The position numbers and the translations under genes are program-made. This document shows positions 66-20,000 of a DNA stretch of 20,000 bases, piece by piece. The DNA comes from Gonapodya sp. JEL0774. Lineage: Eukaryota. The stretch is from positions 116,278 through 136,277 of the forward strand of contig JADIIX010000059.1 in NCBI GenBank assembly GCA_027604505.1, given 5' to 3'. The notes beneath the pieces were generated by a model, which ran no database searches, had not been told where the DNA came from, and saw only the letters and a program-made list of their open reading frames with translations. Numbering within the stretch: position 1 is the stretch's first letter; every line of letters starts with the position of its first letter.

Positions 66-1933
66 TGGAGCCCAAAGGAACGCAGGCATTACGGGAGCCA
101 TCCCAGCTGGCGTTTTCAAGCTTGCCAATCTTCAGAGCCTTCTCTTAAGCGACGATTCCCTGTCCGGTCCCTTAGGGTCGGGGTTGAGTGACATGGTCCA
201 GCTAGTCACTCTGTACTTGGATGGAAACACAAACTTAAACGGAACAATGTGGGTTACGATTGATGCTTAGTGGTGACTAGACCGTAGCAACGATTCGTTG
301 CGGCTTCGTATATGCTGAGGTATTGTTTCGCTTCTCGGATATGCACCACTCCCCCTTTTCAGACCGGACTTGTCCAAGCTCACAAAACTAACCGCTCTGT
401 GAGATCTTCGCGATGTCCATAGATGAAAACTTGCTTGCATGAGCTTATACAGTGTATTCTTGTAGGGATGTTTCCAGCACCGGTCTGAGTGGAGGTATCA
501 GTCTCGCATCGTCAGTGCTTTGTTTTGTTTTCTCCAACACTATGGTGCAGTGAATGCTAACATACAGCCTCCGCTTCCACCCTACGACACTCCTTCAACA
601 GAACAGCTGCAAGCGACTTTTGCTCTCTCGCCAATACCAACCTCTGTCTTGTTGGTGGTAATGTCAACTCTCTTCCGTCGAGATGTCAGACTGGTGGCGG
701 AAGAAGTCTCCCGGCATGTTCGTCGAGCGCCAGTACGGCAACGTCGAAGAGTTCTGGTACCGGGACCGCGTCAGCGTCGTCGACGGCAACAGCAGGCGGA
801 CAAAGCTCCAGTGATACCGGCAGCGGTGGGAGTTCCCTGGGGCCGATAATTGGAGGTGTCGTCGGTGGGTGTTCAGCACAAAACCGATGTATGTTGATTT
901 TTAGACAGAGTACAATCTGACAATTTTAGGTGGAGTTGCTGGTCTTGGCCTTCTGGGCGGCCTTGCGTGGTACTTTGGTCGCCATCGCGGAGCCAAAGAT
1001 AACTCCACAAGTGGCTCGGCTGCAGTTGCGGCGACACCCAACCAAACATACCCTCCTGCAAATGGTCAACCCCAGCTCTACGCTCCACAGTATGGTAACG
1101 CGGTTCCACAAATGGCCGGGATCACGTACTCGAACCAGCCCAATTCCCCCAATACTGTCATGTCCAACGTCCCACAACAAGGGATCTCCCAGCCTAACAG
1201 CGACTCCACCTACAGTGTGGGACAGTACGGCTTTGGTGCTAATCTCTTGGCTGCTCCTGGCTCGATGGCAACCCTCGGATCCTCTCTCTCATCCGGGAGC
1301 ACGAAAGTCAATGAGGTGTACGTGGTCGCTCAGCCATTCTGGGCCACTCAAGAGGACGAAATGACGTGCCAGCAGGGCCAAAAGGTTTTCGTGAGCGATG
1401 TTTTCCCGGACAACTGGTGCAAGGCGTTGAATTTAGAGTCAATGCAGTCTGGTGAGTTCCTATGCCGGTTTCTGAAAGCAATAAAGCTGATATGCCCTTC
1501 ACAAACATCGACGTGTATTTTTTTTTATGTCGATGCACATATGCAGGTATCGTTCCCTTGGCCGTGCTTGTACCAGCAAGCCAGCCCACACTGGTCCAAT
1601 CCCGTATGGCCTCTGGGTCGGTGTTCCAACCTCTTGCCAGGGGCCAGAGCATCGGAGCAGGAAGCGCCATTGTGACTGGAGATCAAGGTATTTCGTTGTG
1701 TTCTGGAGGGCTTTGGACTGCTATGATGAACTTACGTCGTACCACCCCCCGCGCTTCCCACCATGCACCCCTCCACCCCCGAAGCTCTCGTCTCGCTTCG
1801 CAATTACTTGGACATGGGAATTATTAACTCTCAGCAGTATATGACTGGGAGCATGGCCCTGGGTAGCAGCACAGCGATTGGAATGCACGGCGATGTTAAG
1901 GGACCAGGGACACCAATCGACTCCAAAAAATGA
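66..1933 (+). CDS. LRR-TM-SH3 receptor-like protein, copy A (5' part lies upstream of the window)
   Basis: Exons 66-248, 363-398, 466-510, 602-864, 930-1451, 1547-1687, 1785-1933, all with GT-AG boundaries at positions matching copy B. Translation gives LRRs (GITGAIPAGVFKLANLQSLLLSDDSLSGPL; LVTLYLDGN; IPDLSKLTKLTALDVSSTGLSG), Cys cap DFCSLANTNLC, S/T stalk, TM IIGGVVGGVAGLGLLGGLAWYF, SH3 VYVVAQPF..QEDEMTCQQGQKVFVSDVFPDNWCKALNLESMQSGIVPLAVL and tail ALVSLRNYLDMGIINSQQY...HGDVKGPGTPIDSKK*. Confidence 0.88.
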
Positions 1934-2946
1934 TCGGCGCAATCATCTAATTATGATCTGGGTTATTTTTGGACTGGAGAGGGTGAGCACAATGCATTGA
2001 TCGCTGTTGCATGGAATTATCAGAAAGTGAAGCAACCGGAGTGTTGCTGGAGTGAGAACAACTAAATTGGATAAGCACAACGCAAAAGTGAACATGTACA
2101 TGATATCACTACACTGCAACCCGAACGGATATGCACGTACGATTTTCTACTCTCGCTCGCGGATTCATCATGCAATGAGAACCACTTAGCCAATTTGCTG
2201 GTGTAATCCACTTCGCAAATTTCACACAACCGTTCAGCATCTGGGTGATGAGTTCTACAAAGCGCTTTTTTGCCGCGATACAGATACCTTCGACAGCTGA
2301 TCTCTCGGCCAAGTGTGCGGTGCCACTTCCGGAAGCACCGGGTGCACCAGCCTTCCAATACGTAACGGTCATGGTGACCACGTCTCTCATCGAATTCTTC
2401 CCATTACTACATGTAATTGAATTAGCACATAGAAATGAGATTACACCTAAGCTCCTCTATCATTTGGGTCTTGTATCGGCTTCGAATCATTTATGAATCT
2501 TCGTTCATTGTCATATTGTTTCATGTTCATCCCACTTCCTACACCGCCTGGCACCTCAGCGAAGAATGTCCAAGCAAGCATTTGCAGGACGCGGTGCAAA
2601 ACACAGATTGGCGGAATTGACACTTTTGCACTTTCGAAGGATCTTTGCTCCCAGACAAACATTCGACTGTATCTGAGAGCACATTAGCAATGTGATTCAT
2701 AATATTTCTCAATGGTGCACTCCGTAAATCATACAACTTGCGGTGTGTGTGAGCGGTGGGGTCGTGAAAAGTCACACATCAGGCAGGACAGCTGTGGCGT
2801 GGGGAGGCTCAATAAATGAAGGGCGCCGTTGTTTGTTGCCTCAACACCGGGTGGGAAAAAAAGGAAACCAAGTTATTCCTTTCCAACCTTGGACTTTTAT
2901 TGGCACAAGGGCCGGTCCACCGTTCCCACACCCCAAATTCGAAGAG

Positions 2947-5900
2947 ATGCGTACTTCTATCGGGCTTCTGCTTGTTGCGATCGCTGTTGTTGGTGTTCGC
3001 GCACAAGCACCGGCGGACTGCGTTTCCATTTTCGCTGCCTTCCGTGCAGGAAACGTGACTATCACACCGGCAGCGGCGGCAACGGACTGTTGCGAGTTTC
3101 TGGCGCCGAATGGGCCAGATAAAAATGCGGACGGTTATTTGTAAGTGGCGTCGATGAGCTCAACAAGTTAGTTTGTTCTATTCACACTCACATTTTTTTG
3201 AATACATATCTGTTCGCTCAGTGAGAACTTTGTGGAATGCGCGGGAGGCAGAGTCACACGCATTCAGCTCATTGGATACAATATCGACTCTCTTAGGTGT
3301 GTAAGCTCAATCCATTTTCGATTGTCCCCTCCAGGTCGGGTCTCGAATGAGGAAACGGTGATCAATTTTGTAAAAAGATGTGCAACTGTGCCTGCTATAT
3401 GTCATGTTTTCTGACGACCTGTTCCCTTACAGTTATTTCAGCAATCTCACCGCGCTTACCCTTCTCACCGTGCACGATAATCTCATTGCCGAACCGCTGC
3501 CCTCTTGGCTGCCGAACCTCGTCAACCTAGAGAAACTCAATCTCAATGACAACTTCATAACAGGAACTACTGGGGTGCTGGGTCAGCTCAGGAAAACGAC
3601 GTACATGTGAGTTTTCTGGAGCGACTGGAATCCGTGGATGACCAGTCGAGATTTCTTTGCCTGTTTCCACAACTTTCCACTCAATTTCAGTGACGTTTCC
3701 GGCAATCTTTTGACTGGCAACCCTTCCTGGCTTGCGACCTCCACACAGCTGTCGACGATGTAAGGACATTGAGTTTGACATACTTCCATAATTATATCGG
3801 TAATCATCTTGCTGGGGATTCTCTATCAAAGCATCCTCGAAAAGAATCAGCTTGTAGGTCTACCCTTCTTTCACCACCAGAACATGGAAGACCATGCATT
3901 CTTGGAAACTAACGCGATGCTGTCTCCTTCAGTCTGGCACATTCCCTGATATATCTGGGCTCACGAACCTCACATCGCTGCGAATCGGTGACAACCAGTT
4001 CACAGGAGCCTTGCCCAGTACCACAAGTTTCCCAGCGCTTCTTACATAGTGAGTTGAGTTTTAATCGGTGGCCGCTGGAGGAATCACGAGTCCCTTTCAG
4101 AATTCCGGTGGGGTAGCTGACCGGAATCCTCAACTCGCAATCGTTTTCGGGTGAAATTCCTAGCTCCGTGTACTCAAACAAGTTCACAGGTGAGATCTCT
4201 GCGATTACCCAATCCGCGCTCTTGCAATTTTGACCAAACATTGTCTGTGCAGGCGCGATTCCCGCCCTCACGAATAACCCACTTCTCATAACTGTGAGTA
4301 ATTCTAGGCACCCTTGTGAAGTTAGCTGCGACACTATCTGCTCTGAACCCTTTGCACCACGCACTGTTTCTGATAGTTCAACGTGAACAACAATTCTCTC
4401 ACGGGATCGTTGCCCGACCCCTCGAACTGCCCCAAGCTGACGTACTAGTGAGTTTCTGCGTCTTAATTGTATCTCGCTCATCGTGTTCAAATCGTTATCT
4501 AACGGCAATCACGTCTCCTCCCTGGTCGCAGTGGAGCGCAAAAGAACATAGGCATCACGGGTACTATCCCAGCTGGTGTTTTCAAACTTGCCAACTTGCA
4601 GACCCTTGTGCTCTCCGATGACTCACTGTCCGGTCCCCTGGGTTCCGGGTTGAGTGACATGGTCCAGTTAAGCACTCTGTACTTGGATGGAAACACAAAA
4701 CTAAACGGAACAATGTGAGTTGGAATTGATGCTTCGTGCTATCAGGCTGTGCCAGCGATTTCGCTTTGGCTATGTGCCATGCTGAGATGTCGTTCCTGTT
4801 CCCAATGTCCACAATCCCCGCATATTAGCCCTGACTTGTCGAAGCTCACAAAATTAACTGCACTGTGAGATCTTGGCGAGTCACATAGATGGGACTGATT
4901 GTTTGAGTTTACATTCGATTCTTGCAGGGATTTGTCCGACACCGGCCTGAGTGGAGGTATCAGTCTCGCATCGTCAGTACATCGTTTTGGTCTCTAACAC
5001 CTGGTGAAGTGAACGCTGACATGCACCCTCCTCTTCCGCCCCATCAATCCTCGTCAACAGGACTGCTGGTACTGATTTCTGCTCTCTCGCGAATACCAAC
5101 CTCTGTCTTGTTGGCGGTAATGTCAACTCTATTCCGTCGCGGTGTCAGACTGGTGGCGGTAAAAGTCTCGCGGCATGTTCGTCGAGCGCCGGTACCGCAA
5201 CGTCGAAGAGTTCTGGCACCGGGACCGCGTCAGCATCGTCGACGGCAACAGCAGGCGGGCAAAGCTCTAGTGATACCGGCAGCGGTGGGAGTTCCCTGGG
5301 GCCGATAATTGGAGGTGTCGTCGGTGAGTTTTCAGCAAGGATCCGCTGTGTTTGAGCTTCCAGAAAAAACTATCCCAATTTTAGGTGGAATTGCTGCGCT
5401 TGGGCTTATTGGTGGACTTGCATGGTACTTTGGTCGCCGCCGTGGAACCAAAGAGGCTAATTCACCTCCCTCTACGGCACCTGGAGGACCGCCCAGCCAG
5501 CCTTACGCTCCCTTGGATGGTCAATCCCAGTTCTATGCTCCCCAGTACGGCCAGCCCGTTCCACAAATGCCTCCAGTCTCGTACGCAAACTCCCCTTACT
5601 CTCAAGGTTCTATGTTATCAAATGTCCCACAGCATGGCTCGCCGCAAAACAGTGGGTCTCTTTACAATATGGGACAATATGGCTCCCAAGTTCATCTGAT
5701 GGCTGCTCCTGGCTCGATGGGCACCCTGGGATCCTCAATTTCATCCACGAGTACAAAGGTTAACGAGGTTTATGTTGTCGCGCAGCCATTCTTGGCATCG
5801 CAAGAGGATGAGATGACGTGTGAACAAGGTCAGAAGGTGTTTGTGAGCGATGTGTTCCCCGACAACTGGTGCAAAGCGTTGAATTTGGAGTCGATGCAGT

Positions 5901-6362
5901 CTGGTGAGACTATTGGCGTTGACCAAACGCAATGAAGGAACCATATGATAACAGCCAAACCATCACAATGCATTCACACGGTGTAGGTGTGGTTCCACTT
6001 GCTGTGCTCGTACCAGCTAACCAGCCCGGTATGGTTCAATCACGAATGCTGTCTGGGTCCATGTACCAACCTCAGGCGCGAGGTCAGAGTATCGGAGCAG
6101 GAAGCACTATTGTGTCAGGAGATCAAGGTAATCACTGAGTTTACCCATAACTTGATGTGTGTTTGTGCCTCTTAAACCCCCAACCTTCCGCTATTCGCCA
6201 TCTGAATTTTCAGCCCTTCTGTCTCTCCGCAACTACTTAGACATGGGAATCATCAATTCTCAGCAGTACATGTCTGGTAGCACAGTCCTTGGTAACAGTG
6301 CGGCGATTGGAATGCATGGAGATGTGAAGGGTCCCGGGGCACCAAGCGAGTCAAAAGAATGA
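2947..6362 (+). CDS. LRR-TM-SH3 receptor-like protein, copy B (complete, 16 exons, ~707 aa)
   Basis: Exons 2947-3140, 3222-3296, 3433-3606, 3691-3759, 3832-3853, 3933-4048, 4164-4189, 4253-4293, 4377-4447, 4532-4714, 4829-4864, 4928-4972, 5061-5323, 5385-5903, 5987-6127, 6214-6362. They sum to 2124 nt in one open frame with GT-AG introns. Signal peptide MRTSIGLLLVAIAVVGVRA; N-cap DCC..VECAGGRVTRIQL; LRRs such as LPNLVNLEKLNLNDNFITG and ISGLTNLTSLRIGDNQFTGALP; TM IIGGVVGGIAALGLIGGLAWYF followed by GRRR; SH3 at about 5765-6012. Confidence 0.9.
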
Positions 6363-6722
6363 TCGGTCCTGTCGTGCGTGGTTATTAGGACGTTGGAAAG
6401 GAGAGTGTTTTGAGGTACAGAGCAACGGACACAAATTTGGACCACATTTTCTATGTTCCAGTAAATATTACAATATCGGAACACCCACTTGTAGTCCTCC
6501 ATCATACTGGTAGCCCAAGCGTTACCTGCTTCTTCGGACATCTTGTGTATAACATTACAAGATTAAGATCACTCAAAGAATCATATATCTGCATATGTAC
6601 TAGGGTTCGGGTATCAAACCAACGAATCCAGCTCCATGACATAAAGAGATTTCATAAATGCTTCATAGAAAAGGACGAATCATCTTCAAACCTCAGGCGA
6701 AGTATCCTTTCACGCTACCTTC

Positions 6723-7550
6723 CTATCCTGTTACAGACTCCAAAGCCTCCCGGGGCACTAATCCGACACGTCCTTTTGTAAGATTTGCCACCTTCACCCA
6801 AGGCTCTGAAATGTCACTATCGTAGCTTAATGCAACGCGGTCACCGATATCCAGTTTCACGTGCCTCCTTCTTCTGGGAGTAAAGGCCAGAATAGCAACG
6901 TGTGTTGGGACGTGAGGGAATATAGACGGCTCGCCTGCGTTTGCGCGGTTATCATACTCCTCGTCTGATGTCGTGATTGGGTCTGGTGTGACAACTTGCA
7001 CGACCGGCCGGCGGAACTCGGTGAGCGATGGGGTTGTGACATAAATGATGGAGCTGCTACGCCCCCGGTCAGACCCCGTAGATATGATGGAACTCCTTGT
7101 GGGAGATCGGGGAGTGCTGTCGTCCTCCGCCGGGCTCACATCCCCAGTGGTGGATTGAAGCGTTAAAGAAGGGGTGTGAGATGAAGTGGGGACCGAGGAG
7201 TTTCCAAAGAGAGTGGAACTCCGGCTATTGGGACGGGAATCGGGGGGTCCGCTTGTCGGTGATGTTGGTGTGGTGGTCGTGGGTCGTTTGAGATGTTTGA
7301 GATTGTTGTGCCCATTATCCAGGGTCGCTGCCGGCTCATCGACATTCTCCGGCGAGAGAACCGCCGTTGTTTGAAGCGCAGTTCTTTCTACATCTCCTTC
7401 TGGGGGTCCACTGGAGTCTCTTGCTCGCTTTCTTCGAAGCAAACAACGGTAAAGTCCAAACAACGCAAGACAAACGAATAGTCCAATCGCCAACGGCAAT
7501 AAGATGGTGAGTCCAGTTGAATTGTTTTCTGAACGCGTTGACTCGTCCAT
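6723..7550 (-). CDS. Single-pass membrane protein with a C-terminal SH3-like domain (intronless, ~275 aa)
   Basis: The listed ORF opens at TTG 7613; the first ATG is at 7550 (MDESTRSENNSTG). It is followed by hydrophobic helix LTILLPLAIGLFVCLALFGLY, a basic stop-transfer RRKRAR, a long S/T/P-rich region and the SH3 pattern HVAILAFTPRRRRHVKLDIGDRVAL...PWVKVANLTKGRVGLVPREAL. An additional upstream exon cannot be excluded. Confidence 0.78.
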   Translation of the reverse strand: MDESTRSENNSTGLTILLPLAIGLFVCLALFGLYRCLLRRKRARDSSGPPEGDVERTALQTTAVLSPENVDEPAATLDNGHNNLKHLKRPTTTTPTSPTSGPPDSRPNSRSSTLFGNSSVPTSSHTPSLTLQSTTGDVSPAEDDSTPRSPTRSSIISTGSDRGRSSSIIYVTTPSLTEFRRPVVQVVTPDPITTSDEEYDNRANAGEPSIFPHVPTHVAILAFTPRRRRHVKLDIGDRVALSYDSDISEPWVKVANLTKGRVGLVPREALESVTG

Positions 7551-7788
7551 CTTTGAGAGTGCCAATGCTGCGATCGAGATCAAGTCTGGGTCACGGTTGT
7601 TATGGGGGGACAAAACTGCCTCCTGAAATTGCCGCCAGGTATGAGAAATGTGTCAGGCCCATTGAAACCCATCATTTTTGTGACTTTGTTTATATGTAAT
7701 TGAATTACAGAATTTCAATAGATAAGATTGATGGATCTGGGTCTGAATTACACACATCTCATCATCCCTTCTTTATCCAAGCTGAAGG

Positions 7789-10700
7789 TTAATATTGTCC
7801 AACTGGTGCACCAGGTCCTTTCACATCCCCGTGTCCCATTGCAAATGAGCTGTTACCGAGGACCCTGCTCCCTGTCATGTACTGCTGAGAGTTGATGATG
7901 CCCATGTCCAAGTAGTTCCTGAGGGAAGCAAGAGCTTGTTCTCCGGTGACAATAGTACTACCAGCTCCAACACTTTGACCTCTTGCATTGGGTTGATACA
8001 GTGACCCAGACATCATACGCGATTGTACTATTGATGGCTGGTTAGCAGGTGCAAGCACTGTCATGGGAACAATTCCTATCGACGGGGAACCGACAAGGCC
8101 AACAAAGTCAAAATTAACGCGCGAATCGACAGGATTGTTCACAAAAAGAAAACATTTCAGGTCAGCGTACCAGACTGCATGGTCTCCAAATTCAACGCCT
8201 TGCACCAATCGTCCGCAAACACATCACTAACGAACACTTTTTGTCCTTGCTGACAAGTCATTTCATCCTGCTGCGATGCGAAGAATGGCTGCGCCACCAC
8301 GTACACCTCGTTAACCTTCGTGCTCCCGCTTGAAGTTGACGACCCTACGGTGCCCAATGAACCGGGAGGAGCCAAGAGGCGAGCTCCGGAGCCATATTGC
8401 CCGGTGCTATAAAGGGAGCCACTGTTCTGAGAGGAACTTCCTTGCGGTGGAATGCTGGATCCCAATGAACCCTGAGAGTAGGGAGAGTTTGGGTACGAGA
8501 CCGGTGCCATTTGCGGAACGGGGTTATTGTACTGTGGAGCATAGTACTGGGTTTGGCCATTTGGAGGAGGGTAAGTTGGGTTGAGTGGTGCTGAAGTCGA
8601 GGCACCCGAAGGGGTATCCTTTGAAGCTCCACGACGGCGACCGAAGTACCACGCGAGGCCTGCGATGATTCCAAGAGCAGCGATTCCACCTGAGCAATAT
8701 TCGAATGGCAATGGTGAGAAGCCAAAACATTGATGCGGGACTGCACAAATAAGCAGATGCGGGAACACCAAACTTACCAACGACACCGCCAACAATGGCA
8801 CCAGTCGAACTTCCACCCCCAGAATTCGGAGTTCCACCCGCAGGACCCTCGGAGCCAGACGCAGCTGCTGTCGCTGTTGCCGATGATGACGATGTCTTGG
8901 CGCTTGTCACTGAAGTGCTTTCAACTTTTGCAGTGGAAGTTCCGGAACTTGCAGTCGTTGCGGCGCACGCAGGAAGGCTAAGCCCGCCTCCCGTTCGACA
9001 AGATGATGGAATAGTGCTAATACTGCCACCAACAAGGCAAAGGTTGGTGTTGGCAAGAGAGCAGAAATCGCCACCAACGTTTCTGGACATGGGCAATACA
9101 CATCGAAGATTCAACTCATGTCAGTTCTCGGATCCGATAGAAGTCTGCGCCCGCCCTAGTACTCACGACGCAAGTAGAATTCCACCACTGAGGCTCGTGT
9201 TGGACAGGTCCCTGAACAAAAAGGAGAAAGGTTGATGAGGCGGCGATCATGCGACAACCTCGCATCAAAGGATTTCTCACAGTGAGGTCAGCTTTGTCAG
9301 CTTAGACAAGTCCGGACTGAAGAAAGGACGGTTTTAGGGTGTAAAGGGAACAAAACGAGTGTTCAGCGCAGACCCCAACTGCAGGCATGGTCCCTGATGA
9401 TTCATGACCAAAAACCCACATTGGTCCGTTAAGCCCAGTGTTTCCATCCAACCATAAAGTTACCAGTTGTGTCATATCACCCAGACCTGATGGGAGAGGT
9501 CCCGACAGCGAGTCGCGGGACAGGGCAATAGTCTTCAAGTTCGAGAGAGTAAAGAGACCAGGCGGGATCGAGCCAGTAACGCCCGAGTTGCGTTGAGCTC
9601 CACTACAAAATGCAAGATGTGGTGTGAGTGGATTAGGCGTTCAGCAGATTCAGAGGCACATGTCCAGGTAGTTCCATAGACCAAAAAATGGGGCCAAAAC
9701 CCACTAGTACGTCAATTTAGGGCAGCCTCCGGGATCAGGCAAAGAACCCGTCATAGAATTGTTGTTGACATTGAACTGTCGAAAGCAACGTTAATCCGAC
9801 GACGTTGGAGCAAACCTGAATGAAATCAGGTAAGACCTAACGGCACTCACTGAAATAAGAAGCGGATTACTGGAGAGAGAGGGAATAGCACCTGTTGAGG
9901 CAATCGTGAACATCAAGTAAGATGTAAGTACCGCAGGACAGAGTCCGAGGTGGGCTCACCAGTAAATCCGTTCGAATACATGGAGCTTCGAAAAGTCAAT
10001 GCGGAAGCGGACACGGTATTAGTCACCACCAACGATTTGCCATAGGGCGCCAGAAGAAGAGAGAGTTTCTTCCCTCTAACAGCAACCTCTCCAACTCACT
10101 ATGCAACGAGGGCTGGGAAGTTGGTGGTGCTGGGCACCGGCCCAGTAAACCCGTTCTGACCAACATCAATATAGCTGAGGTTTCTCAGTTGCGAAATGTC
10201 CGGGAAGGTCCCAGACTGGAGGTGAGGAAGCAAGTCACAATGAAATTCTGGTGCAGGTTGTTTTATCGCCCGAGTCATACACTACTTACGAACTGGTTGA
10301 CGTCTAGGTAGCTGCATGATTGAGAGGGATCAGAGATATGGCCACAAAACACATGCAACGATATCTTACATCGTCGATAGCTGGGTGGAGGTTGAGAGCC
10401 AAGCCGGATTACCGGTAAAGCCGTTGTTGGACAGGGAGCTACGAAAGAATAATACAAAATAAATTGATTCAACCAATGAGCGCACCGCTTCGACTGCGTA
10501 CTCACACGTAGCTCAATTTCGGCAGAGTGCCTAAAACCTCTGTGGTGCCTGTCATTCTGTTGTTGTCGAGCACCAATTTGTTCAAGTTCGTCCAAGTCGA
10601 CAGCCACGAAGGAAGTGGTTCTGCGATGAGATTATTACGAACATTGAGGAAAGTGACAGCGGTGAGATTGGCGAAATAACTGAAGGGGGGTGGGTGTGGT

Positions 10701-11105
10701 GAGTGTGCGATGGAACGACTCAAATCGGCTGATAAACGAACAAGGCAACCTGGCACGAACCTGAGTGAAGTAAAATTAAAGTTTATGAACTGGATTGTCG
10801 TTATTCTGCCACCCTCGCATTCCACAAAGTTCTGGCTTTTGAGGGAGTAAATCATGAGTGCAAATTCTCCATCACACCCCTTCATTGTTGAATAGGACGT
10901 ACTAGTATCCATCGGCCGTTGAATCAGGTCCACTTGAATACAAAAAGTTACAGCAGTCTGTCGCAGCGGAAGCTGGAGTGATTGCGACGTTTGAGGCCCG
11001 CAAACCGGCGAGAATGGCGACACAGTCCGTGGGGGCCTGAGCTCGAACCAATGAGACCACCAGGGTCGCAGCAAGGAACAGAGCGGGAGCGACTCCGCGC
11101 ATCAT
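7789..11105 (-). CDS. LRR-TM-SH3 receptor-like protein, copy C (complete, 15 exons, ~723 aa)
   Basis: Exons 11105-10903, 10835-10761, 10679-10506, 10438-10370, 10311-10290, 10215-10100, 9985-9960, 9891-9851, 9775-9705, 9602-9420, 9316-9281, 9211-9167, 9082-8778, 8689-8171, 8075-7789. They sum to 2172 nt in frame. Exons 2-12 have the same lengths as in copy B (75,174,69,22,116,26,41,71,183,36,45). Signal peptide MMRGVAPALFLAATLVVSLVRA; same domain order; ends HGDVKGPGAPVGQY*. Confidence 0.9.
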
Positions 11106-11700: not shown

Positions 11701-13133
11701 TCAACTTGAAGTTGGTGGAGGTGTGATCTAGAAAAGGACAGCTCCGCATCGACTAACAAAACATTGGTATCAGAATTGACCAGCCACTCACCAAATGAGC
11801 ATACGGCCATCCGTTCAACATGTTGCACCATCCTCCATCGACAACAACACCTTATTGATAAGAATATTGTATCAAGGAGTTCACAGAAGATTGTATACAA
11901 TGAAAGCGAACTCACTCTGCCCATTCACATATGTCAATGCCGGCAAGCACAGCACATAAGCGAGTTGCGCCACGTCTTCTGGTTCAGCAGCACGGCCACT
12001 AGGCACCTGCGTGCCCAGGGCAACGAACATATCGTCGGCCATTGAGGTTAGTGGAGTCCGAACGAGGCCCTTTACCCACAAAGAAAACCACAACGTTCGC
12101 ATGACATGAAGTGAGTCTCCAATCCTTGTACCGGATATTGCGACAAGAGACGAACTTACTGGACACAGTGCATTCACAGTGATCCCTTTTGGTCCAAGTT
12201 GCGCACACGCTGCCTTGGTAATGCCAAGTACACCGTGTTTGCTTGTGTCGTATCCCAAGCTGGCTGTCGTGTACAGACCGGCGGAAGAAGAGATGTTGAT
12301 GATACGAGATGTGGTGGTAAGGTTTGTCGCATGGTCGGAGCCTGCAGTGAGCGACGCTGCCGCGGAGCTAATCAGGTGAGGAGTGCAGGCTTTAATAAAT
12401 CGCATAGTGCCGTTGAGGTTAATCTGGAGTTTCAGTGGTCAAAAGTTGATCTCCATTGCGAAGCGGGAGAGACTCGACCGTCACCTACATCCAGGGTCCC
12501 GTCATAATTTTTGAAAAATGTCTCGTCATCACTATGGATGTTGTATGGCCCTGTGATTGCTCCCACTCCGGCTTTGCAAAAGAGAATGTCAGAGGTCCGT
12601 CCGGGTCATTGGTTGTCCACCTCTGCCACCCTTACCAGAGTTGATCAGAATATCAATTTGTCCGAAGTGCGCGGCTACCTAGGGAAGAATCGATGTGACA
12701 GTGTTATCTAAGTACTGTAGCGATCTCCCCCAACAGTCATCACAAGAGCTGAATCGTTCAAGCTCACCTCTTCAACGACTGCTTTAACCCTTTCTCCATC
12801 CTTTACATCACAAACCCACCCTTTCACATTTGCCTCTCCGTGCACTTCACGAATCTCCGCCACGGCTTTATCCACTCTTTCGCTTCCAATGTCCACCACA
12901 GCCACCTTTGCTCCCGCATCTGCGAGAACGTGCGCGCAGGCGCGACCAATGCCGGATGCACCTCCTTAGCATGTTCGAAGCAATATATTTATGACGAGCA
13001 GTTTTTCGTTTGGAAATCAGTTCGGATCGGCCGCATAGTCATGGGTTACACAGAGCACCGTACCGGTCACGATCGCGACCCTGCCTTCAATAGATTGGCT
13101 CATCTTGGAGAGACGTCTGCGAGGAGCTGCCAT
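11701..13133 (-). CDS. Classical short-chain dehydrogenase/reductase (NAD(P)-binding Rossmann fold, FabG-like), ~298 aa
   Basis: Exons 13133-13064, 12964-12768, 12678-12636, 12571-12489, 12423-12160, 12069-11916, 11850-11792, 11727-11701 (897 nt). Motifs: GRVAIVTGGASGIG (TGxxxGIG), VVD (acidic residue suggests NAD), IDILINSAG, IINISS, catalytic YDTSK, GITVNALCPG and YVNGQSVVVDGG. The last micro-exon is less certain. Confidence 0.92.
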
Positions 13134-13462: not shown

Positions 13463-16400
13463 TTACCAAAGCGGGGACCAAACTGCATAATCCCCTGGAA
13501 ACGTCAAGGCCACAAAGTCGGTCCTGACTGTCCTTGACTCCTTCCGTGAGTGGCCGTGTCCTTTCCCCGTTCTCTTCGATGTCCCCTCTCTCAATTCTCC
13601 CCCATGCGTCGAACCAGGCTCCCCGACTCTCGACGGCCGGCCCACGTTCACCGCCCCGCGGGACTGAGAACTGCTCCCTGTCGGATCTTCCTCGTCGTCC
13701 CCCTCCCCGACCACTTCTGAGGACCCCCTCCCGCCAGACGTGCCCACCCCGAGTAGCCGCTCCACCAACCTCGCCACCGCGCTCCCGCCTGACCCCACAG
13801 TCTCTGTAAACAAGTCCTCGTACCCTTTGTGTCCCATCACTGTTCTGCTGGGACCCCCAGGCGTCCCTGCGGACGAATCCAAACTCGTAATCGCACTCGA
13901 TGCTGCCTCCCCGTATCCCTCCAGTCCTTGCTCCAAGTCTAAATCTCCATTGAGGTACAGCGGGTCCACCCTGTACGGCGTGACGGTACTGCGCGGAAGT
14001 TTTCCTCGTGCCCATTCCGACGTCGTAGGGGGTTGGTGGGCAGGGTAAGCGGAACTGGAAGAAACGTTGAAGGAAGATGAGGTGTTGCGAGGATTGGTGG
14101 CTGGGTGGAGTAGAACGTTATTTGTGAAACATCCGACATAAATACAGCTGCAGCTTACTTTGCCCATCGCTACGGATGTACGTGTACACTCACCTCCTTC
14201 AACCCCACCAATTCCACCACTTGGACGTGTCCCCGCACCCCATTCAACCAGTTCTTTATCCACCCCAACCACCACCCTCACCACCCCTCCGACCACTTCC
14301 ACCCAGTCCCCGTCTCCATTCACCAGCTTGCCCCCGCTACCGCCGTCACTCGTGGCTTCTCCAGCCCCGACCACCGTCCCTCCAAACCCCTCCACGTCCA
14401 CCCCACTTCCAGTCCCGGCACGCACACCAGGTCCACTTCCGTTCACATGCACACTCATGCTCCCATCCAGCCTCACCACCCACCTCGTTGGCGCCCTACT
14501 TTCTAGTACACGCGCCCGCCATGCCTGCGCGACCTGGCTCACCACGATCCGCCTGGCATAATGCCATGCCGCCGTAACCGGCACGGGGAACCGCCGATCT
14601 ACTCGGACTGCGCGGTCAGCGGGAGGAGGAGGTTTGCCTGCGGTCGCCGAAGAATGCGGGTACAGGGCAGGGAGGCGGAACGCCAGTATGCGAGAAGAGG
14701 AGTCTTGGTCGGCGAGGACGAGGGAGACAAGCAAGTGTCGCTCCGTGTGCGGGTCAGGGGAGACATGGGTGAGCGGGGATATGGGCAGAATGGGTGGTTC
14801 GGCGGTTGAAGAGACGGTGGACGACATGGATGAGGATGAGGCGGCTGCGGCGGCAGCGGCTGCGGCTGCAGATGCACGGCGACTGTGCCGGCCTGCATGC
14901 ATCGGGAACCGCGCGACTTGGGACGCGGAGATATGAATGAGCCGGGTCACCGGGGGTCGCCGGAGACGGCCATGCCCTCTACCCGCGTCTTCTTCTTTGT
15001 CGGTATCGGACTCGGACCTATCACCATCGTCGTAGCTCGACTCCGCATCTGCGAGGGCCAGCTCAAAGTCTCGGTGGGTGAGGTGGACCTGCGGTGACGC
15101 TGCCGGCGCAAGCGCGGCCGTTGACGCAGTCGCAGAAGCAGGCGCAACCGGGGACGCGGAGGACACTTGCCCGCGTTTCGCAGCGCGAGTCAATGCCGGG
15201 TGGAGGAGATTCACCGCCACCACATCGATGGCCGCGTACCCCGCCGTGTGGTCCACCGTCGCGGACCCTGCCTTCCACGGCTCCCCCCGAACGATAAGAA
15301 CGTGGTCGGGCAAGGTGTGGAGGAAAAAGTGCTCCTGCGAGACGTGGAGGCGGGCGATAAAGACGGGCACTGGAGTGGCCGTGGCGGCTGCCAAACTGGC
15401 CTTGCCGGGCGCGATGGCCCCACCACCGGTCGCGCCCGTGCGGAACACGCCCACCTCTGCGTCCCCTCCGCGGCCCCAACGGCGGACCACGGCGAGCCAC
15501 TTCCCGCATGGGGAGAGTTGGGCGCGGTGGATCTGCTCGAAGAGGCCTATGAGGGAGCTGGAGATCGGTGGTGTTTGGGAGGGGGACGCGAACGGGGATG
15601 TGAGGGATGTGGAGATGGGCGGGGTTTGGGACGTGAGTGGGGATTGGAATGATGGTGGTGCCGGGGAGGGGGATGGTGAGAAGGATGTGGATGTGGACGT
15701 GGACGTGGACGCGGCAGAGGCCGTGGAGGCTGCTCTGGTGGACCTCGACGACGAGTCCAAGGACGCGACAAAGAGTGCCATTGACGGGAGTAACGGCGAG
15801 AACGACACATGGTTCGACAAGAGCATGTAGGGCGACGGAGCCGCCCCTTGCGGTGGGAACGTGAACGAAGTGGGCGGGGAGGGCACTGGGAACCCTGGGA
15901 ACGCCGGCGGGCGGGCTGGGGGCACCGTGATCTGGACCAGGTCGGTTCCGTCGACGAAGCAGGAGAAGAGGCGGTTGTCGGTGGAGCGGTAGAAGATGCG
16001 GAGGCCGCAGGGGGAGAAGAAGATGCGGGGGTCGGTGGGCGGGGGGAGGGGCGCGTGGAGGGGTGGGCGGCGGGGGCGACCGTGGGCGGTGGTGGTGGTC
16101 GTGGACGCCCGGCGGGACAGGTGTGGGGACGCGGACAAGAGTGTCGAGTTCCCTTCCCTGACCACGCCGTCGGATCCAGTCGCGCCCCCGCCATCCTCCT
16201 CCTCACCCTGTCCGTCTTCCTGCCCGAGCGCCGGTCCAGACCCCACCCCCACCCCCGCCCCCCCCGCCCCCTCCATCCCCTCGGTGCCCCCGAGACCTCC
16301 CGCCCGCACCACACTCCTCACGGCGGCCGTTCTGGGCTCGATGAGGAATATGGACCCGTCGCGGACCGAGGAGATGAGCAGGGCCCGGCGGGACGTGGCG

Positions 16401-16654
16401 CGGAGGCGTTCGCGGCGGAGGAAAGCGAGCTTGTAAAGGGAGGCGGGGGCGGGGGCGGTGTGCAGGTTGGGGGGCGGGTGTGTGGAGGTGGAGGTGGTGG
16501 TGGTGGACGGGACCGGCAACGCGGCACCGTGGTCGAGTTGTGGACCGGGCGGGGTCGTGTTCGTGTTCGTGTTCCCGCCCACCGCCGGCGCCAAGGACGA
16601 CAAGACCGAGGACGCGGCCGAGGATAGGGCGGAGGACGCGGCGAGGGCGATCAT
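13463..16654 (-). CDS. Large low-complexity protein with TolB/PD40-like beta-propeller motifs; probable in-frame intron at 14193-14101
   Basis: 1063-codon open frame. Ordered islands IFFSPCGLRIFYRSTDNRLFSCFVDGTDLVQIT, AQLSPCGKWLAVV and terminal GDYAVWSPLW* resemble the [FW]SPDG blade motif of TolB/WD40-like propellers, separated by S/T/P/A/G-rich inserts. The start codon is uncertain because the frame stays open upstream to about 16960. Confidence 0.62.
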   Translation of the reverse strand: MIALAASSALSSAASSVLSSLAPAVGGNTNTNTTPPGPQLDHGAALPVPSTTTTSTSTHPPPNLHTAPAPASLYKLAFLRRERLRATSRRALLISSVRDGSIFLIEPRTAAVRSVVRAGGLGGTEGMEGAGGAGVGVGSGPALGQEDGQGEEEDGGGATGSDGVVREGNSTLLSASPHLSRRASTTTTTAHGRPRRPPLHAPLPPPTDPRIFFSPCGLRIFYRSTDNRLFSCFVDGTDLVQITVPPARPPAFPGFPVPSPPTSFTFPPQGAAPSPYMLLSNHVSFSPLLPSMALFVASLDSSSRSTRAASTASAASTSTSTSTSFSPSPSPAPPSFQSPLTSQTPPISTSLTSPFASPSQTPPISSSLIGLFEQIHRAQLSPCGKWLAVVRRWGRGGDAEVGVFRTGATGGGAIAPGKASLAAATATPVPVFIARLHVSQEHFFLHTLPDHVLIVRGEPWKAGSATVDHTAGYAAIDVVAVNLLHPALTRAAKRGQVSSASPVAPASATASTAALAPAASPQVHLTHRDFELALADAESSYDDGDRSESDTDKEEDAGRGHGRLRRPPVTRLIHISASQVARFPMHAGRHSRRASAAAAAAAAAASSSSMSSTVSSTAEPPILPISPLTHVSPDPHTERHLLVSLVLADQDSSSRILAFRLPALYPHSSATAGKPPPPADRAVRVDRRFPVPVTAAWHYARRIVVSQVAQAWRARVLESRAPTRWVVRLDGSMSVHVNGSGPGVRAGTGSGVDVEGFGGTVVGAGEATSDGGSGGKLVNGDGDWVEVVGGVVRVVVGVDKELVEWGAGTRPSGGIGGVEGGECTRTSVAMGKVSCSCIYVGCFTNNVLLHPATNPRNTSSSFNVSSSSAYPAHQPPTTSEWARGKLPRSTVTPYRVDPLYLNGDLDLEQGLEGYGEAASSAITSLDSSAGTPGGPSRTVMGHKGYEDLFTETVGSGGSAVARLVERLLGVGTSGGRGSSEVVGEGDDEEDPTGSSSQSRGAVNVGRPSRVGEPGSTHGGELREGTSKRTGKGHGHSRKESRTVRTDFVALTFPGDYAVWSPLW

Positions 16655-16669
16655 GGCTGAGATGGACGG

Positions 16670-16900
16670 GGTGCGGCGGGAGCGGGGCGGGGTGGGGGTG
16701 GGCGGGGGAGGGTCGGCGGGGTCGGCGGGGGAGGTGAAGGGGGTGGACGTGGAGGGGGGGAAAGAGGACGGGGACGGGGAGGCGGAGCGGCGGGCGTGGT
16801 GGGGGCGGGAGTGGGATTGGCGGTGGGGTGGTGGGGCTGGAGGGGCGGTGAGGGGGAGGTGGGAGGGCGGGGGGCGGCCGGGGGCGGGAGGAGGTTGGGG
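16670..16900. repeat. G-run low-complexity tract (similar tracts at about 17880-18075 and 19915-19990)
   Basis: Dense G3-G6 runs with short spacers on the + strand, which accounts for the many overlapping spurious ORFs. Confidence 0.7.
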
Positions 16901-16955
16901 TACACAATAGAGGTGTTGTAACCATCCGCGATGCGATGCGCCAGAACCGACGGGG

Positions 16956-18005
16956 TCAGGTCAGGACACCCAAAGCGAAATTAAGGCCCCCCAAGCAAGC
17001 AGGCGGGACACCCCAACTCCACTCCCACCGGTACCGGCACCGCAGCCACGCGCCGCAATACAGTCGCACGGGTGGGGTGGCATGTTGGCATGGTTCGCAG
17101 AGTTCAGGTCCGCTTGTTGAGCAAATATCCCGATACTCGCGCTGGGTAAGGGGGCCACGTGCGGCGGGGTCTTGTCCCATCCCCACAACCCACGTCCACA
17201 CCCACCCCCACCACTCGGTTCCCCCGTTCCCCCCCCCCGTTCCACCCCCAGTCCCAGTCCCCGCGTCGCAGTTCCCCGACCGCAACGAACCGAGCTCACC
17301 TTGACCGTGACCTTGCCCTGTCCCGATCGGACCTGGTGGGGACCCGTTTGTCGGTGCGAGGGAGGGGGTGGGAGGGGATGGGGACAGGGTGGACGGGGTT
17401 GGGAGGGAGTTGGAGTTTGGGGCGGGGGCGGGGGCGGGGGCGACAGCTGTGAGGGGGAGGGTGGCGGGAGCGGGAGGGGGATCCCCGTGGACATGGACAT
17501 GTCCACGAGAGGGACGGGGGCCACGATTGCCAAGGGGAAGGGTCCCGCCCTCTCCCACTCCCACTCCCACTCCACCACGGCCGGGTGCACCCGACCCGCC
17601 CGCGCCAGCGCCGTTCCCTGTCCGGCCCGTCCCACCCCCACCCCCACCCGCACCCCCCAACCCACCCCCGTTGGCCTCTCCGCCCCCTGTGGCCCCCGTT
17701 CCCGGCCCACCCCCATCCCACCCCCACCCCCACCCAACCTCCCTCCCCACCACGTCCAACAGCCTGGGCACGGTCTGGGCGGCCCACAAGTCGGGGTACA
17801 GACCCTCGGCCACGGCGTTCCAGGCGCGGGAGACTTTGAGGAAGGAGGCGAGCGAGGGGGGGTGGGCGGTGGCGGCGCGGAGGAGGATGAGGCGGAGGAG
17901 TTCGGGGGGGAGGGGGGGTGTGCGGGGGCGGGGGCGGGCGGGGCGGGGAGGGGGGGGGGAGGACCAAGGGGGCCAGGGGGAGTTGTTGGTGGGGGTGGGA
18001 GACAT
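16956..18005 (-). CDS. F-box-like domain protein (boundaries uncertain)
   Basis: Inside ORF 16956-18287, PPLPPELLRLILLRAA...LASFLKVSRAWNAVA..LYPDLW fits the F-box consensus LPxELLxxI...L..VSrxW. ATG 18005 is a plausible start. The remainder is G/P-rich with a CEPC motif near the end, and splicing at either end is unresolved. Confidence 0.55.
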   Translation of the reverse strand: MSPTPTNNSPWPPWSSPPPPRPARPRPRTPPLPPELLRLILLRAATAHPPSLASFLKVSRAWNAVAEGLYPDLWAAQTVPRLLDVVGREVGWGWGWDGGGPGTGATGGGEANGGGLGGAGGGGGGTGRTGNGAGAGGSGAPGRGGVGVGVGEGGTLPLGNRGPRPSRGHVHVHGDPPPAPATLPLTAVAPAPAPAPNSNSLPTPSTLSPSPPTPSLAPTNGSPPGPIGTGQGHGQGELGSLRSGNCDAGTGTGGGTGGGNGGTEWWGWVWTWVVGMGQDPAARGPLTQREYRDICSTSGPELCEPCQHATPPVRLYCGAWLRCRYRWEWSWGVPPACLGGLNFALGVLT

Positions 18006-19295
18006 GGGGGGCTGGTGTGTGGGGAGTGGTGTGTGTGGGGTAGGTGGAATGGGTGTGTGGGGTGACTGGGGGACACCATCGTGTGGTGGGTAGGAAATTG
18101 GCCAACTTCCCCCCCCATTTCCCCCATCCCCCATTTCCGGTACTCGGGTACGGCGCCCCCGCAAACCGCAAACCGCGACTTCATCGTGTCGCTCGACAGC
18201 TCCCGCGTCCACGACGGTCACCAGATCGAGTCCTTCCCCGCGCCCGCGTTCCGTTCCTGTCTCCCGACAGACGCTCCCGGCTCTCACCAGACAACCCCTC
18301 TGCCTGCCCCATCACCATCGCCCAGGGCTTGCCCGTGTCCCCGCTTCCAGTTTTCCTCCGGGGACGCAGGTTCAGCACCCCCACCCCACCACACCAACAC
18401 CAACCCACCAACACCCCGAGCCGCTCACCTTTTTTCACTTGTGTCCACGCTTTTTTGCCCTTTTCCCCTCCTTTGTTCGAGCTCGCACTGGTGCCGTCCT
18501 CGGCTCTTTGGTTGTTTGGTCCTCTTGTTTCAATTTACACACGAAGCATCCAGGATCGGCCGGTCGGCTCAACCTGTCCACCCGCGCGGACCAACCCCAT
18601 TCCACCTCTTGTCCAGACAGACACATCAAGAATAAGAAAATAGCAACGGAAAGCTTCCATTATTACGCACCCTATTACATCAATAGTACATAGTACCTTC
18701 AGCATTTCTCCGTTCTCTGGTGTCTGCGGGGGTTTGACCAAGTCTCTTGACATAATGGGGACAAAAGTAGCAATAAGGAACGAAATTCGAAAATACAGTA
18801 AATTTATCCAGTCGTTTTTGGCAATTGCGCTCGGGATGCAAGGTATGAAGCTGTGCCACCCGCTGTGCCACGGCGCCGGGCTGTTGCCCGCACTCATCCA
18901 TCACCCAGTCACCCAGTGCTGTTGCCCCTTCACACACGGTCCCTTCCGTTGCATTTCACTGCGGCCACACCAAGGGACACGCATCGCAAACCCCCTTTTT
19001 TCCGCCACTCGCACACGCCTCCCACCAACCACATCACTCGGCCCCTCCCCACTCGCCGCCTCCCCCGCACTCCCCCTGACACCCTGTCTCCCACTCTCCT
19101 CCTCCCCTCTCCCAAATGGTGCGTCCCCTCCCCCCATCCCCCATCCCGCTCGCTCTGTCTCCCGCCAACCAACCAACCCCTCTCTTCTCTCCACCCGAGG
19201 GCCCCGCGCCCCCAGTGACCCCACCCCCCCCCCCCCCCCCACCCACACACGCAGGAACAAAGAGTCACCGAGCTCACAGGAGGGGGGGAGTGGTG

Positions 19296-19305: not shown

Positions 19306-19885
19306 AACAAAACCCCGCTGAAGCATCCGTCGTCAAACTCATCGGTTCCCAGCCAGTCTTCCTCACTAAAATGGACGCCGGACTCTCGGTGCTCGTCAAT
19401 GTCGAGTGAGTTTTCACCCTTTGTTTGCCACCGTCGCGTCATGGACAGTCTGAGTTGGAGGTTTAGTGGGGTTTTGGAGACCGTGTCCCTCACCTCACGA
19501 ACAACTCACCTGCCGCCTCGGTCCTTGTCCCCCCTGTGCCCCGTCCTCTCTTCTCCCCTTGTCCCCCTCCCGTTCCCCACCACCTTGCGCCCTCCATTCC
19601 CCGTCCCCCTTTTCCCCACCTCCCTCAAGACAACTCTCCCTCTCCACCAACATGCTCGACAAAATATCCAGCCTACAAGGCCTCACCAAACTCCGCATCC
19701 TCTCCCTCGGCCGCAACATGATCAAGAAGATCGAGGCCCTCGAGCCCGTCGCGGACACTTTGGAGGAGCTCTGGATCTCTTACAACTCCATCGAACGCTT
19801 GAGCGGCGTCGAAATGTGCAAGAAACTCAAGGTGCTCTACGCATCCAACAACAAGATCAAGGCCATGGACGGCGTGGCTGCCATC
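19306..19885 (+). CDS. DNAL1: Axonemal outer-arm dynein light chain 1 (LC1, SDS22-type LRR), partial
   Basis: Exon from the gap edge to 19405 ([33 protein letters not shown]), intron 19406-19629 (GTGAGT..AG), exon 19630-19885 ([77 protein letters not shown]), then donor [27 protein letters not shown] and [11 protein letters not shown] are hallmark LC1/DNAL1 strings. The gene continues beyond the window. Confidence 0.93.
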
Positions 19886-20000
19886 GTGAGTCGTGGGAGC
19901 GGTGTGAAGGCGCGGGCGGGGGGGGGGGCGGGGGGGGGGGCCAGGGGGACGGTGGGGGTGGGGGCCGGGGTAGGGCGGGGGGAGGGTGTGAAATTGGGAG

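What the first reader, a model, noticed from the sequence alone, without database searches (positions are those of the whole stretch)
66..11105. Cluster of kinase-less LRR-TM-SH3 cell-surface receptors in a probable zoosporic fungus
Seen: three paralogs; the complete copies splice to signal peptide, Cys N-cap, ~11 LRRs of the LxxLxxLxLxxNxLtGxiP type, Cys C-cap (NTNLC), S/T stalk, TM, SH3 and a conserved tail, with no kinase or TIR domain. Established: this LRR consensus and capping style is characteristic of plant LRR-RLK/RLP ectodomains. Animal TLRs signal through TIR, plant receptors through kinases, and well-studied fungi are generally described as lacking LRR surface pattern-recognition receptors. 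Inference: this may be a distinct receptor class that couples an LRR sensor to an SH3 output, for non-self, substrate or mate sensing. I do not know of a characterised protein with this architecture, but I cannot exclude unstudied database entries.
Basis: partly seen in the sequence, partly recalled or inferred. Interest (0 to 1): 0.9.

Follow-up and report, generated by a model that had tools for sequence, protein, structure and literature searches.

The report
Fungal LRR surface receptors with SH3
Three neighbouring genes of the water mould-like fungus Gonapodya encode predicted cell-surface proteins that join a plant-style leucine-rich-repeat domain outside to an SH3 docking domain inside, with no kinase; they are likely receptors of a kind that fungi are usually said to lack, but no ligand or function has been tested.

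Summary
Observation confirmed. Three paralogs (A partial, B 707 aa, C 723 aa) splice through 35 GT-AG introns of 58-136 nt whose positions and phases match between copies. Order: signal peptide, Cys N-cap, 11 LRRs (mostly 23 aa), Cys C-cap, S/T stalk, one TM, low-complexity linker, SH3, conserved tail; no kinase or TIR. Database matches place them in Gonapodya; G. prolifera has six more LRR+SH3 members, named only 'L domain-like protein'. The LRR folds like plant receptor ectodomains, the SH3 like SH3s. New here: the SH3 lacks two to three of the aromatic PxxP-binding residues, as yeast Fus1 does; it is followed by a conserved R-x-Q-S-hydrophobic motif, echoing Rx[ST]S-hydrophobic motifs behind 58 of 79 related chytrid SH3s; the tail is a SHOCT-like helical hairpin (weak). 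Likely mechanism: ligand-driven clustering with SH3 docking, not catalysis; this is inferred. My paper searches found no LRR-TM-SH3 protein, but chytrid LRR-TM proteins are in print, and I found a chytrid LRR-TM-SAM protein. A new variant of a known kind.

The parts
66..1933 (+). Copy A, 5'-truncated by the window edge: last 4 LRRs, C-cap, stalk, TM (840-982), SH3 (1313-1575), RGQSI motif (1639-1653), hairpin (1687-1870). Exons 66-248, 363-398, 466-510, 602-864, 930-1451, 1547-1687, 1785-1933
   Evidence: 79% identical to B
2947..6362 (+). Copy B, complete, 707 aa, 16 exons: 2947-3140, 3222-3296, 3433-3606, 3691-3759, 3832-3853, 3933-4048, 4164-4189, 4253-4293, 4377-4447, 4532-4714, 4829-4864, 4928-4972, 5061-5323, 5385-5903, 5987-6127, 6214-6362
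2947..3003 (+). B: predicted signal peptide (residues 1-19)
   Evidence: hydropathy; inferred, SignalP not available
3004..3454 (+). B: N-cap with 4 conserved Cys (C25, C48, C49, C71), specific to this family
3455..4972 (+). B: 11 LRRs with the N-x-L/F-T/S-G-x-x-P signature, spacing 24, 23x6, 25, 24, 24
5074..5184 (+). B: C-cap with 4 conserved Cys
5185..5298 (+). B: Ser/Thr/Gly-rich stalk
   Evidence: sequence; pLDDT under 50
5299..5437 (+). B: single TM helix with GxxxG motifs, split by a phase-1 intron, followed by RRR
5765..6015 (+). B: SH3 domain with a non-canonical peptide-binding surface, split by a phase-1 intron
6079..6093 (+). B: conserved R-G-Q-S-I motif 24 residues behind the SH3
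6127..6299 (+). B: predicted two-helix hairpin, SHOCT-like
7789..11105 (-). Copy C, complete, 723 aa, 15 exons; TM 8802-8637, SH3 8309-8047, RGQSV motif 7983-7969, hairpin 7935-7849
   Evidence: 67% identical to B
6723..7550 (-). Intronless 275-aa ORF between B and C: short N-terminus, one TM, S/T/P-rich linker with two R-S-S-x-hydrophobic motifs, C-terminal divergent SH3; candidate partner (speculative)
   Evidence: SH3 E 2e-4 to 4e-4, under cut-off; exact sequence not in the protein collection

Best explanation
These are intact genes for predicted single-pass plasma-membrane proteins that likely act as receptors: a capped LRR solenoid outside would bind a protein or peptide ligand, and a non-catalytic SH3 module inside would pass the signal by docking. 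Shown: gene structure, domain order, conservation in two species, purifying selection. Predicted: LRR and SH3 folds, tail hairpin. Inferred steps: (1) ligand binds the concave LRR face, the most variable LRR surface; (2) binding clusters receptors, helped by the GxxxG TM and perhaps the hairpin; (3) the SH3, which lacks the usual PxxP pocket, binds R-x-[QST]-S-hydrophobic motifs as yeast Fus1 SH3 does; at rest it would hold the receptor's own motif, and clustering or phosphorylation of the Ser would free it for neighbours or for polarity/actin proteins. For the ligand I favour foreign (microbial or substrate-borne) proteins, about 45%, over gamete or self signals, about 30%.
For: Intron conservation and open frames. 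Six G. prolifera proteins carry LRR plus SH3_1 at 30-56% identity to the window copies. B vs C dN 0.23, dS about 2.1 (near saturation); SH3 and TM most constrained (dN 0.08); SH3 is the best-conserved region over 8 members (0.61 vs 0.47 for LRR). Concave x positions: pN 0.34 vs 0.19 for the rest of the repeat. LRR model pLDDT 73-97 over residues 71-360, top Foldseek hits plant MIK2, RGFR1, ERL1, FLS2 ectodomains (E 9e-13 onward). SH3 model pLDDT 86-91, rmsd 1.1-1.6 A to solved SH3s (VIA Z 8.4, rmsd 1.6, 63 aligned). Against Sla1 SH3-3 and the surface-I positions in PMC5823434 (section 12 and passages): W36 and P51 kept, F10 aromatic, but Q8, C37, V54 (numbering transferred by me); Fus1 has Cys at 37 and 54 and binds R[ST][ST]SL / Rx[ST]SL (PMC5823434, PMC5417721, passages). 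In the 20 other SH3 proteins, 58 of 79 pattern-detected SH3 ends are followed within 45 residues by Rx[ST]S[LIMV], against 0.9% in shuffles; 13 of 19 checked have a TM before the SH3s. R and S of the motif are nearly invariant in the family; R-x-Q-S-hydrophobic in 7 of 9 members.
Against: No ligand, location or partner is known. The family motif has Gln where Fus1's consensus has Ser/Thr: the strict form occurs in 0 of 9 members, and I added Q to the pattern after seeing the sequences. The 79 chytrid SH3s are tandem repeats in related proteins, so not independent. The monomer model leaves the motif region uncertain (pLDDT 58 and 47 for residues 261-280), and the full-length model did not fold the SH3 at all (pLDDT under 50 for 426-633). 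Concave-face variation stays under dN/dS 1 (0.46/0.87) and is only modestly above other exposed positions, so positive selection is not shown. About ten members is small for an immune repertoire (genome-wide count not possible). SHOCT match is weak (E 0.035 and 0.083 in 2 of 8 tails, none in window copies), and a test in PMC3581485 (abstract, passages) did not support SHOCT oligomerisation.
Confidence: 0.6

Rival explanations
1. Gamete or cell-fusion proteins, working like yeast Fus1 with an added LRR recognition domain: LRRs recognise a partner cell and the SH3 organises actin and vesicles at the contact. Monoblepharids fertilise eggs with motile sperm (recalled).
For: Fus1-like layout (S/T stalk, one TM, non-canonical SH3; PMC5823434). 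Small family; SH3 and TM strongly conserved.
Against: No expression data. Species-specific duplication (all four JEL0774 members form one clade, 99/98) fits recognition of variable ligands as well. Fus1 orthology was not tested.
Confidence: 0.25
2. Adhesins or wall-membrane anchors that stick to the substrate and link to the cytoskeleton through the SH3, without regulated signalling.
For: No catalytic domain; mucin-like stalk; related chytrid TM proteins carry up to 10 SH3s, a scaffold-like design.
Against: A conserved Ser motif behind the SH3 and a conserved hairpin suggest a switch (inference).
Confidence: 0.15
3. Receptor-like proteins in the plant sense: they need a separate kinase co-receptor bound through the GxxxG TM (as RLPs use SOBIR1, recalled), and the SH3 only sorts or recycles the complex.
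For: GxxxG motifs and a highly conserved TM in the window copies; LRR kinase-like orthogroups reported in chytrids (PMC13618815, passages).
Against: The TM motif is absent from P0014 and P0015 while the SH3 is kept; a 250-residue tail is unlike plant RLPs; no genome was available to look for a partner kinase.
Confidence: 0.12
4. Annotation artefact: an LRR gene and a TM-SH3 gene lie side by side and are not one transcript.
For: Two NCBI models (P0003, P0006) hold only TM-SH3, and NCBI models here are error-prone (P0002 is fused to an SDR gene).
Against: C-cap, stalk and half the TM share one exon; all introns are short and conserved in three copies; six G. prolifera models are LRR+SH3 over 629-735 aa; A's LRR exons lie in the window, upstream of P0003's start.
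Confidence: 0.03

Closest known systems
Plant LRR receptor-like proteins (RLPs such as TMM, RXEG1, CLV2) and LRR-RLK ectodomains (MIK2, RGFR1, FLS2)
   Same: Signal peptide, capped LRR solenoid with the LxxLxLxxNxL[TS]GxxP signature, one TM with GxxxG, no kinase as in RLPs; top sequence and fold matches.
   Different: Mostly 23-aa repeats (under 20% of spacings in 93 of 115 other hits), family-specific caps, no island, and a 250-residue tail with SH3 and hairpin instead of a short tail or kinase.
Yeast Fus1 (type I membrane protein with cytoplasmic SH3; layout recalled)
   Same: S/T stalk, one TM, SH3 with altered surface I including Cys37; Fus1 SH3 binds Rx[ST]SL (PMC5823434, PMC5417721).
   Different: Fus1 has no LRR; position 54 is aliphatic here, Cys in Fus1; the motif here is R-x-Q-S; homology to Fus1 not tested.
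Chytrid Cys-rich-ectodomain TM multi-SH3 proteins (auto-named 'Sorbin and SH3 domain-containing protein 2')
   Same: Nearest SH3 relatives found; TM before SH3; each SH3 followed by an RxSS-hydrophobic motif.
   Different: 3-10 SH3s, no LRR, no hairpin hit; themselves uncharacterised.
Animal Toll-like receptors
   Same: LRR outside, one TM, non-catalytic adaptor-recruiting domain inside.
   Different: TIR replaced by SH3; LRRs match plant receptors far better than animal proteins.
Fungal LRR-TM proteins noted by Soanes and Talbot 2010 (PMC2939053)
   Same: LRR plus one TM in a chytrid, two zygomycetes and Postia.
   Different: Those five had no other predicted domain; SH3 does not occur in the paper (0 occurrences).

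Membership tests
Plant LRR-RLP | Signal peptide and single TM, LRR outside | tested here: met
   Hydropathy and basic residues after the TM; prediction only
Plant LRR-RLP | Plant-type LRR signature and solenoid fold | tested here: met
   repeats mostly 23 aa instead of 24
Plant LRR-RLP | Plant N-cap (Pfam LRRNT_2) | tested here: not met
   No hit on exon 1 at E 0.5 or on 4 full G. prolifera members at E 0.1; family N-cap profile hits no outside protein
Plant LRR-RLP | Short cytoplasmic tail without a folded domain | tested here: not met
   About 250 residues with SH3
Plant LRR-RLP | Signals through SOBIR1/BAK1-type kinase partners (recalled) | not testable with these tools
   No genome held; needs pull-downs
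LRR receptor kinase | Cytoplasmic kinase domain | tested here: not met
Toll-like receptor | Cytoplasmic TIR domain | tested here: not met
   cytoplasmic model shows SH3 plus helices
SH3 domain | Pfam SH3_1 cut-off and five-strand barrel | tested here: met
   26.2 and 27.6 bits against 22.9
SH3 domain, canonical PxxP-binding | Aromatic residues at 8, 10, 37, 54 with W36 and P51 | tested here: not met
   Q8, F10, W36, C37, P51, V54 by alignment to Sla1 SH3-3 and PMC5823434 section 12
Fus1 family | Cys at SH3 positions 37 and 54 | tested here: not met
   C37 yes, position 54 V/I/L; the chytrid relatives mostly have Cys there
Fus1 family | SH3 binds R[ST][ST]SL peptides | not testable with these tools
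   Needs a binding assay
Fus1 family | Orthology to Fus1; induction during mating | not tested
   No Fus1 sequence came up in any search
SHOCT domain (PF09851) | C-terminal two-helix hairpin reaching the Pfam cut-off (27 bits) | tested here: inconclusive
   Hairpin predicted, pLDDT 74-84; 14.3 and 13.1 bits in 2 of 8 tails, no hit in the other 6

The most novel reading that the evidence does not exclude
Early-diverging fungi have a third class of LRR surface receptor beside plant kinases and animal TLRs: LRR sensors mounted on a fungal 'TM + non-canonical SH3 + RxxS motif' chassis (SH3-hairpin in Gonapodya, SAM in Blyttiomyces, SH3 reportedly in Basidiobolus) that signal by phospho-gated clustering and detect foreign organisms. 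They would be the missing fungal surface pattern-recognition receptors.
Probability: 0.3. Interest if true: 0.9.

Novelty: new variant of a known kind. Interest (0 to 1): 0.68.

Why it matters
Reviews still state that fungi do not seem to have extracellular LRR pattern-recognition receptors (PMC9119436, passage; PMC2939053). A conserved, duplicating LRR-TM family with an adaptor tail is a concrete exception and gives defined proteins to test how zoosporic fungi sense microbes, substrates or mates. The SH3-plus-RxxS module shared with chytrid multi-SH3 membrane proteins offers a cheap biochemical test and may explain a large mis-annotated group.

Tried and rejected
No whole genome held, so no genome-wide count. 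No RNA holder listed; no evidence either way on expression or splicing. Complex prediction of the SH3 (P0003 185-252) with the motif segment (255-285): no answer, score 0.01 against a mark of 0.34, alignment not used, controls not folded; no evidence for or against. Metagenome scan with the SH3 exon gave one chance match inside a bacterial histidine-kinase ORF. Full-length profile search: SH3 among the listed domains in 5 of the 120 best hits, all Gonapodya; weak as evidence of absence, since only 7,997 candidates were scored, 120 of 479 hits were listed, and 3 of the 7 query proteins were not among them. ESM Atlas gave only generic LRR or SH3 clusters, all under 0.9. Tail profile: no PDB match under E 0.39, nothing relevant in NCBIfam; no SHOCT set could be obtained for a profile-profile test; the VIA list was filled by SH3s, so the hairpin fold is untested. 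Horizontal transfer of the LRR: 23-aa repeats dominate in 8 of 115 outside hits, two named as bacterial, and the best BLAST scores outside the family were such proteins (131-123 bits vs 105 for the best plant hit), but profile scores mixed plant and other hits, so no donor can be named. Positive selection not shown. Paper searches without a relevant LRR-TM-SH3 hit: (listings; one hit read in passages); one search found nothing on LRR transfer. The library lacks most subscription journals; Kim et al. 2008 on Fus1 was seen only as cited by others. Tables S3-S4 of PMC2939053 were not read. The 2 supplement files of PMC13618815 held no LRR or SH3 text, so the architecture of its LRR orthogroups is unknown.

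Full report
Observation. I rebuilt the three genes by coordinates from six-frame translations. Copy B (2947-6362, +) has 16 exons and 707 codons; copy C (11105-7789, -) has 15 exons and 723; copy A (66-1933, +) is cut by the window edge and gives 445. All 35 introns are GT-AG and 58-136 nt. Every intron of C (14 of 14) and A (6 of 6) sits at the same column and phase as in B, and C lacks the last intron with the frame intact. NCBI's own models agree over most of the length: P0002 from C residue 69 on, P0001 except 31 residues, P0003 from A residue 176 on. The copies are 67-79% identical. B vs C gives dN 0.23 and dS about 2.1, with dN 0.08 in TM and SH3. These are real genes under purifying selection. 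Splicing itself has no transcript support here.

Organism and family. The cytoplasmic exon of B matches at 100% a protein named from Gonapodya sp. JEL0774; Gonapodya is a monoblepharid fungus. Searches of the word index and of all 1.84 billion representatives with the SH3 region (27 hits) gave ten family members: the three here, one more truncated JEL0774 model (P0006) and six from G. prolifera JEL478. All six carry LRR and SH3_1 (P0014 just under the cut-off) and one TM. They are named only 'L domain-like protein' or 'hypothetical'. In a midpoint-drawn tree of all 10 rows, the four JEL0774 members form one clade (99/98), so duplication continued after the species split (P0006 fills 29% of columns). 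No LRR+SH3 protein outside Gonapodya came up, but these searches are not an architecture census (see Tried and rejected). Two earlier AI notes describe an LRR-TM-SH3 gene in Basidiobolus (e1-9749233, e1-7322153). I could not check them; if right, the layout is not confined to Gonapodya.

Outside. After a signal-like N-terminus comes a 4-Cys cap, 11 repeats and a 4-Cys cap. Profiles of both caps hit only family members among the fetched proteins, and Pfam's plant N-cap is not found. Six repeats are 23 aa; that spacing makes up under 20% of spacings in 93 of 115 outside hits and at least 40% in 8. AlphaFold on P0001 with 7 sequences gives pLDDT 73-97 over residues 71-360, and Foldseek ranks plant receptor ectodomains first, as does the sequence profile. 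So 'plant-type' holds for signature and fold, but not for caps or exact period, and no transfer from plants is shown. Concave-face positions differ more than the rest of the repeat (pN 0.34 vs 0.19) without exceeding dN/dS 1.

Inside. A Pro/Gln/Ser/Tyr-rich linker of about 110 residues leads to an SH3. It folded with pLDDT 86-91 in the P0003 model though not in the full-length one, and matches solved SH3s at 1.1-1.6 A. By alignment to Sla1 SH3-3 it keeps W36 and P51 but has Q8, C37 and V54 where most SH3s have aromatic residues (PMC5823434, section 12 and passages). That paper names Fus1 as a domain with such changes, and Fus1 binds R[ST][ST]SL or Rx[ST]SL instead of PxxP (PMC5417721, passages). 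Of the 21 non-family hits, 20 carry SH3s. I looked up 16 of these: 13 are named chytrid proteins, 1 is G. prolifera, 2 are unnamed. In them, 58 of 79 pattern-detected SH3 ends (none detected in 2 proteins) are followed within 45 residues by Rx[ST]S[LIMV], against 0.9% in shuffles. The Gonapodya receptors have R-x-Q-S-hydrophobic at the matching place in 7 of 9 members, and R and S are kept in the other two; the strict Fus1 form occurs in 0 of 9. The pattern was chosen after inspection and the repeats are related, so this is a strong lead, not a measured probability. Last comes a predicted two-helix hairpin (pLDDT 74-84) with weak SHOCT hits in 2 of 8 tails. SHOCT function is unknown; one test did not support oligomerisation (PMC3581485, abstract and passages).

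Mechanism. Shown: genes, domain order, conservation. Predicted: folds and topology. Inferred: ligand on the concave LRR face clusters the receptors; the SH3 exchanges the receptor's own RxQS motif for those of neighbours or effectors, possibly gated by Ser phosphorylation (R-x-x-S is a basophilic kinase site, recalled); output goes to polarity, actin or MAPK scaffolds as with Fus1 (recalled). I put 0.6 on docking-type receptor signalling and about 0.35 on the specific self-motif switch. Rivals are gamete fusion, plain adhesion, a kinase co-receptor, and artefact.

What is known. Soanes and Talbot found LRR receptors absent from 45 of 49 fungal genomes, with five exceptions bearing no other domain (PMC2939053; part 1 of 5 and passages). 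A 2022 review repeats that fungi seem to lack them (PMC9119436, passages); a 2023 review mentions LRR only for NLRs (PMC10197012, passages). A 2026 paper reports high-copy LRR-RLK orthogroups shared among chytrids, with no mention of SH3 (PMC13618815, passages and 2 supplement files). Six searches found no LRR-TM-SH3 protein in this library. The proteins work like a TLR or RLP in layout and like Fus1 inside, but fail membership of each on a tested feature.

Verdict. A real, uncharacterised domain combination built from known parts: new variant of a known kind, interest 0.68.

Noticed in passing
window 6723-7550 (-): Intronless TM + SH3 ORF (275 aa) between copies B and C, apparently unannotated (flanking locus tags are consecutive; exact sequence absent). 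Its linker has RSSTL and RSSSI; two or more such motifs arose in 1.8% of shuffles.
   Followed up: partly
window about 11750-13130 (-): Short-chain dehydrogenase gene; the NCBI model P0002 fuses it to copy C through a 683-nt intron (11791-11109, read), far longer than the 58-136 nt of the 35 receptor introns; likely an annotation error.
   Followed up: partly
P0095 (Blyttiomyces sp.): Chytrid protein with many plant-type LRRs, S/T stalk, one TM at 931 and a weak C-terminal SAM domain (E 8e-4): a kinase-less LRR-TM-SAM layout. An internal cap has a similar Cys pattern by eye, but the family N-cap profile did not list it.
   Followed up: partly
P0005, P0007, P0009-P0011, P0016, P0017, P0019, P0020, P0022, P0025: Chytrid membrane proteins with a Cys-rich outer part, one TM (two in P0019) and 3-10 SH3s, nearly each followed by an RxSS-hydrophobic motif; many are auto-named 'Sorbin and SH3 domain-containing protein 2'.
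   Followed up: partly
window 602-982 vs 5061-5437: A and B are closer at synonymous sites in C-cap, stalk and TM (pS 0.16-0.33) than in the cytoplasmic part (0.53-0.78); possible gene conversion, few codons.
   Followed up: no
P0004 and P0031: Both lie on a contig of the same length (1,043,345), so G. prolifera may have a tandem pair too.
   Followed up: no
window 13463-18311 (-): GC-rich region (mostly 0.62-0.76) with long low-complexity ORFs: 13463-16960 has no Pfam hit, 16956-18311 a weak F-box-like hit (E 0.008).
   Followed up: no
window 19454-19999 (+): Open-ended ORF with LRR_4 repeats (E 2e-15); resembles axonemal dynein light chain 1 (recalled, not tested). A short run of N lies near 19310.
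   Followed up: no
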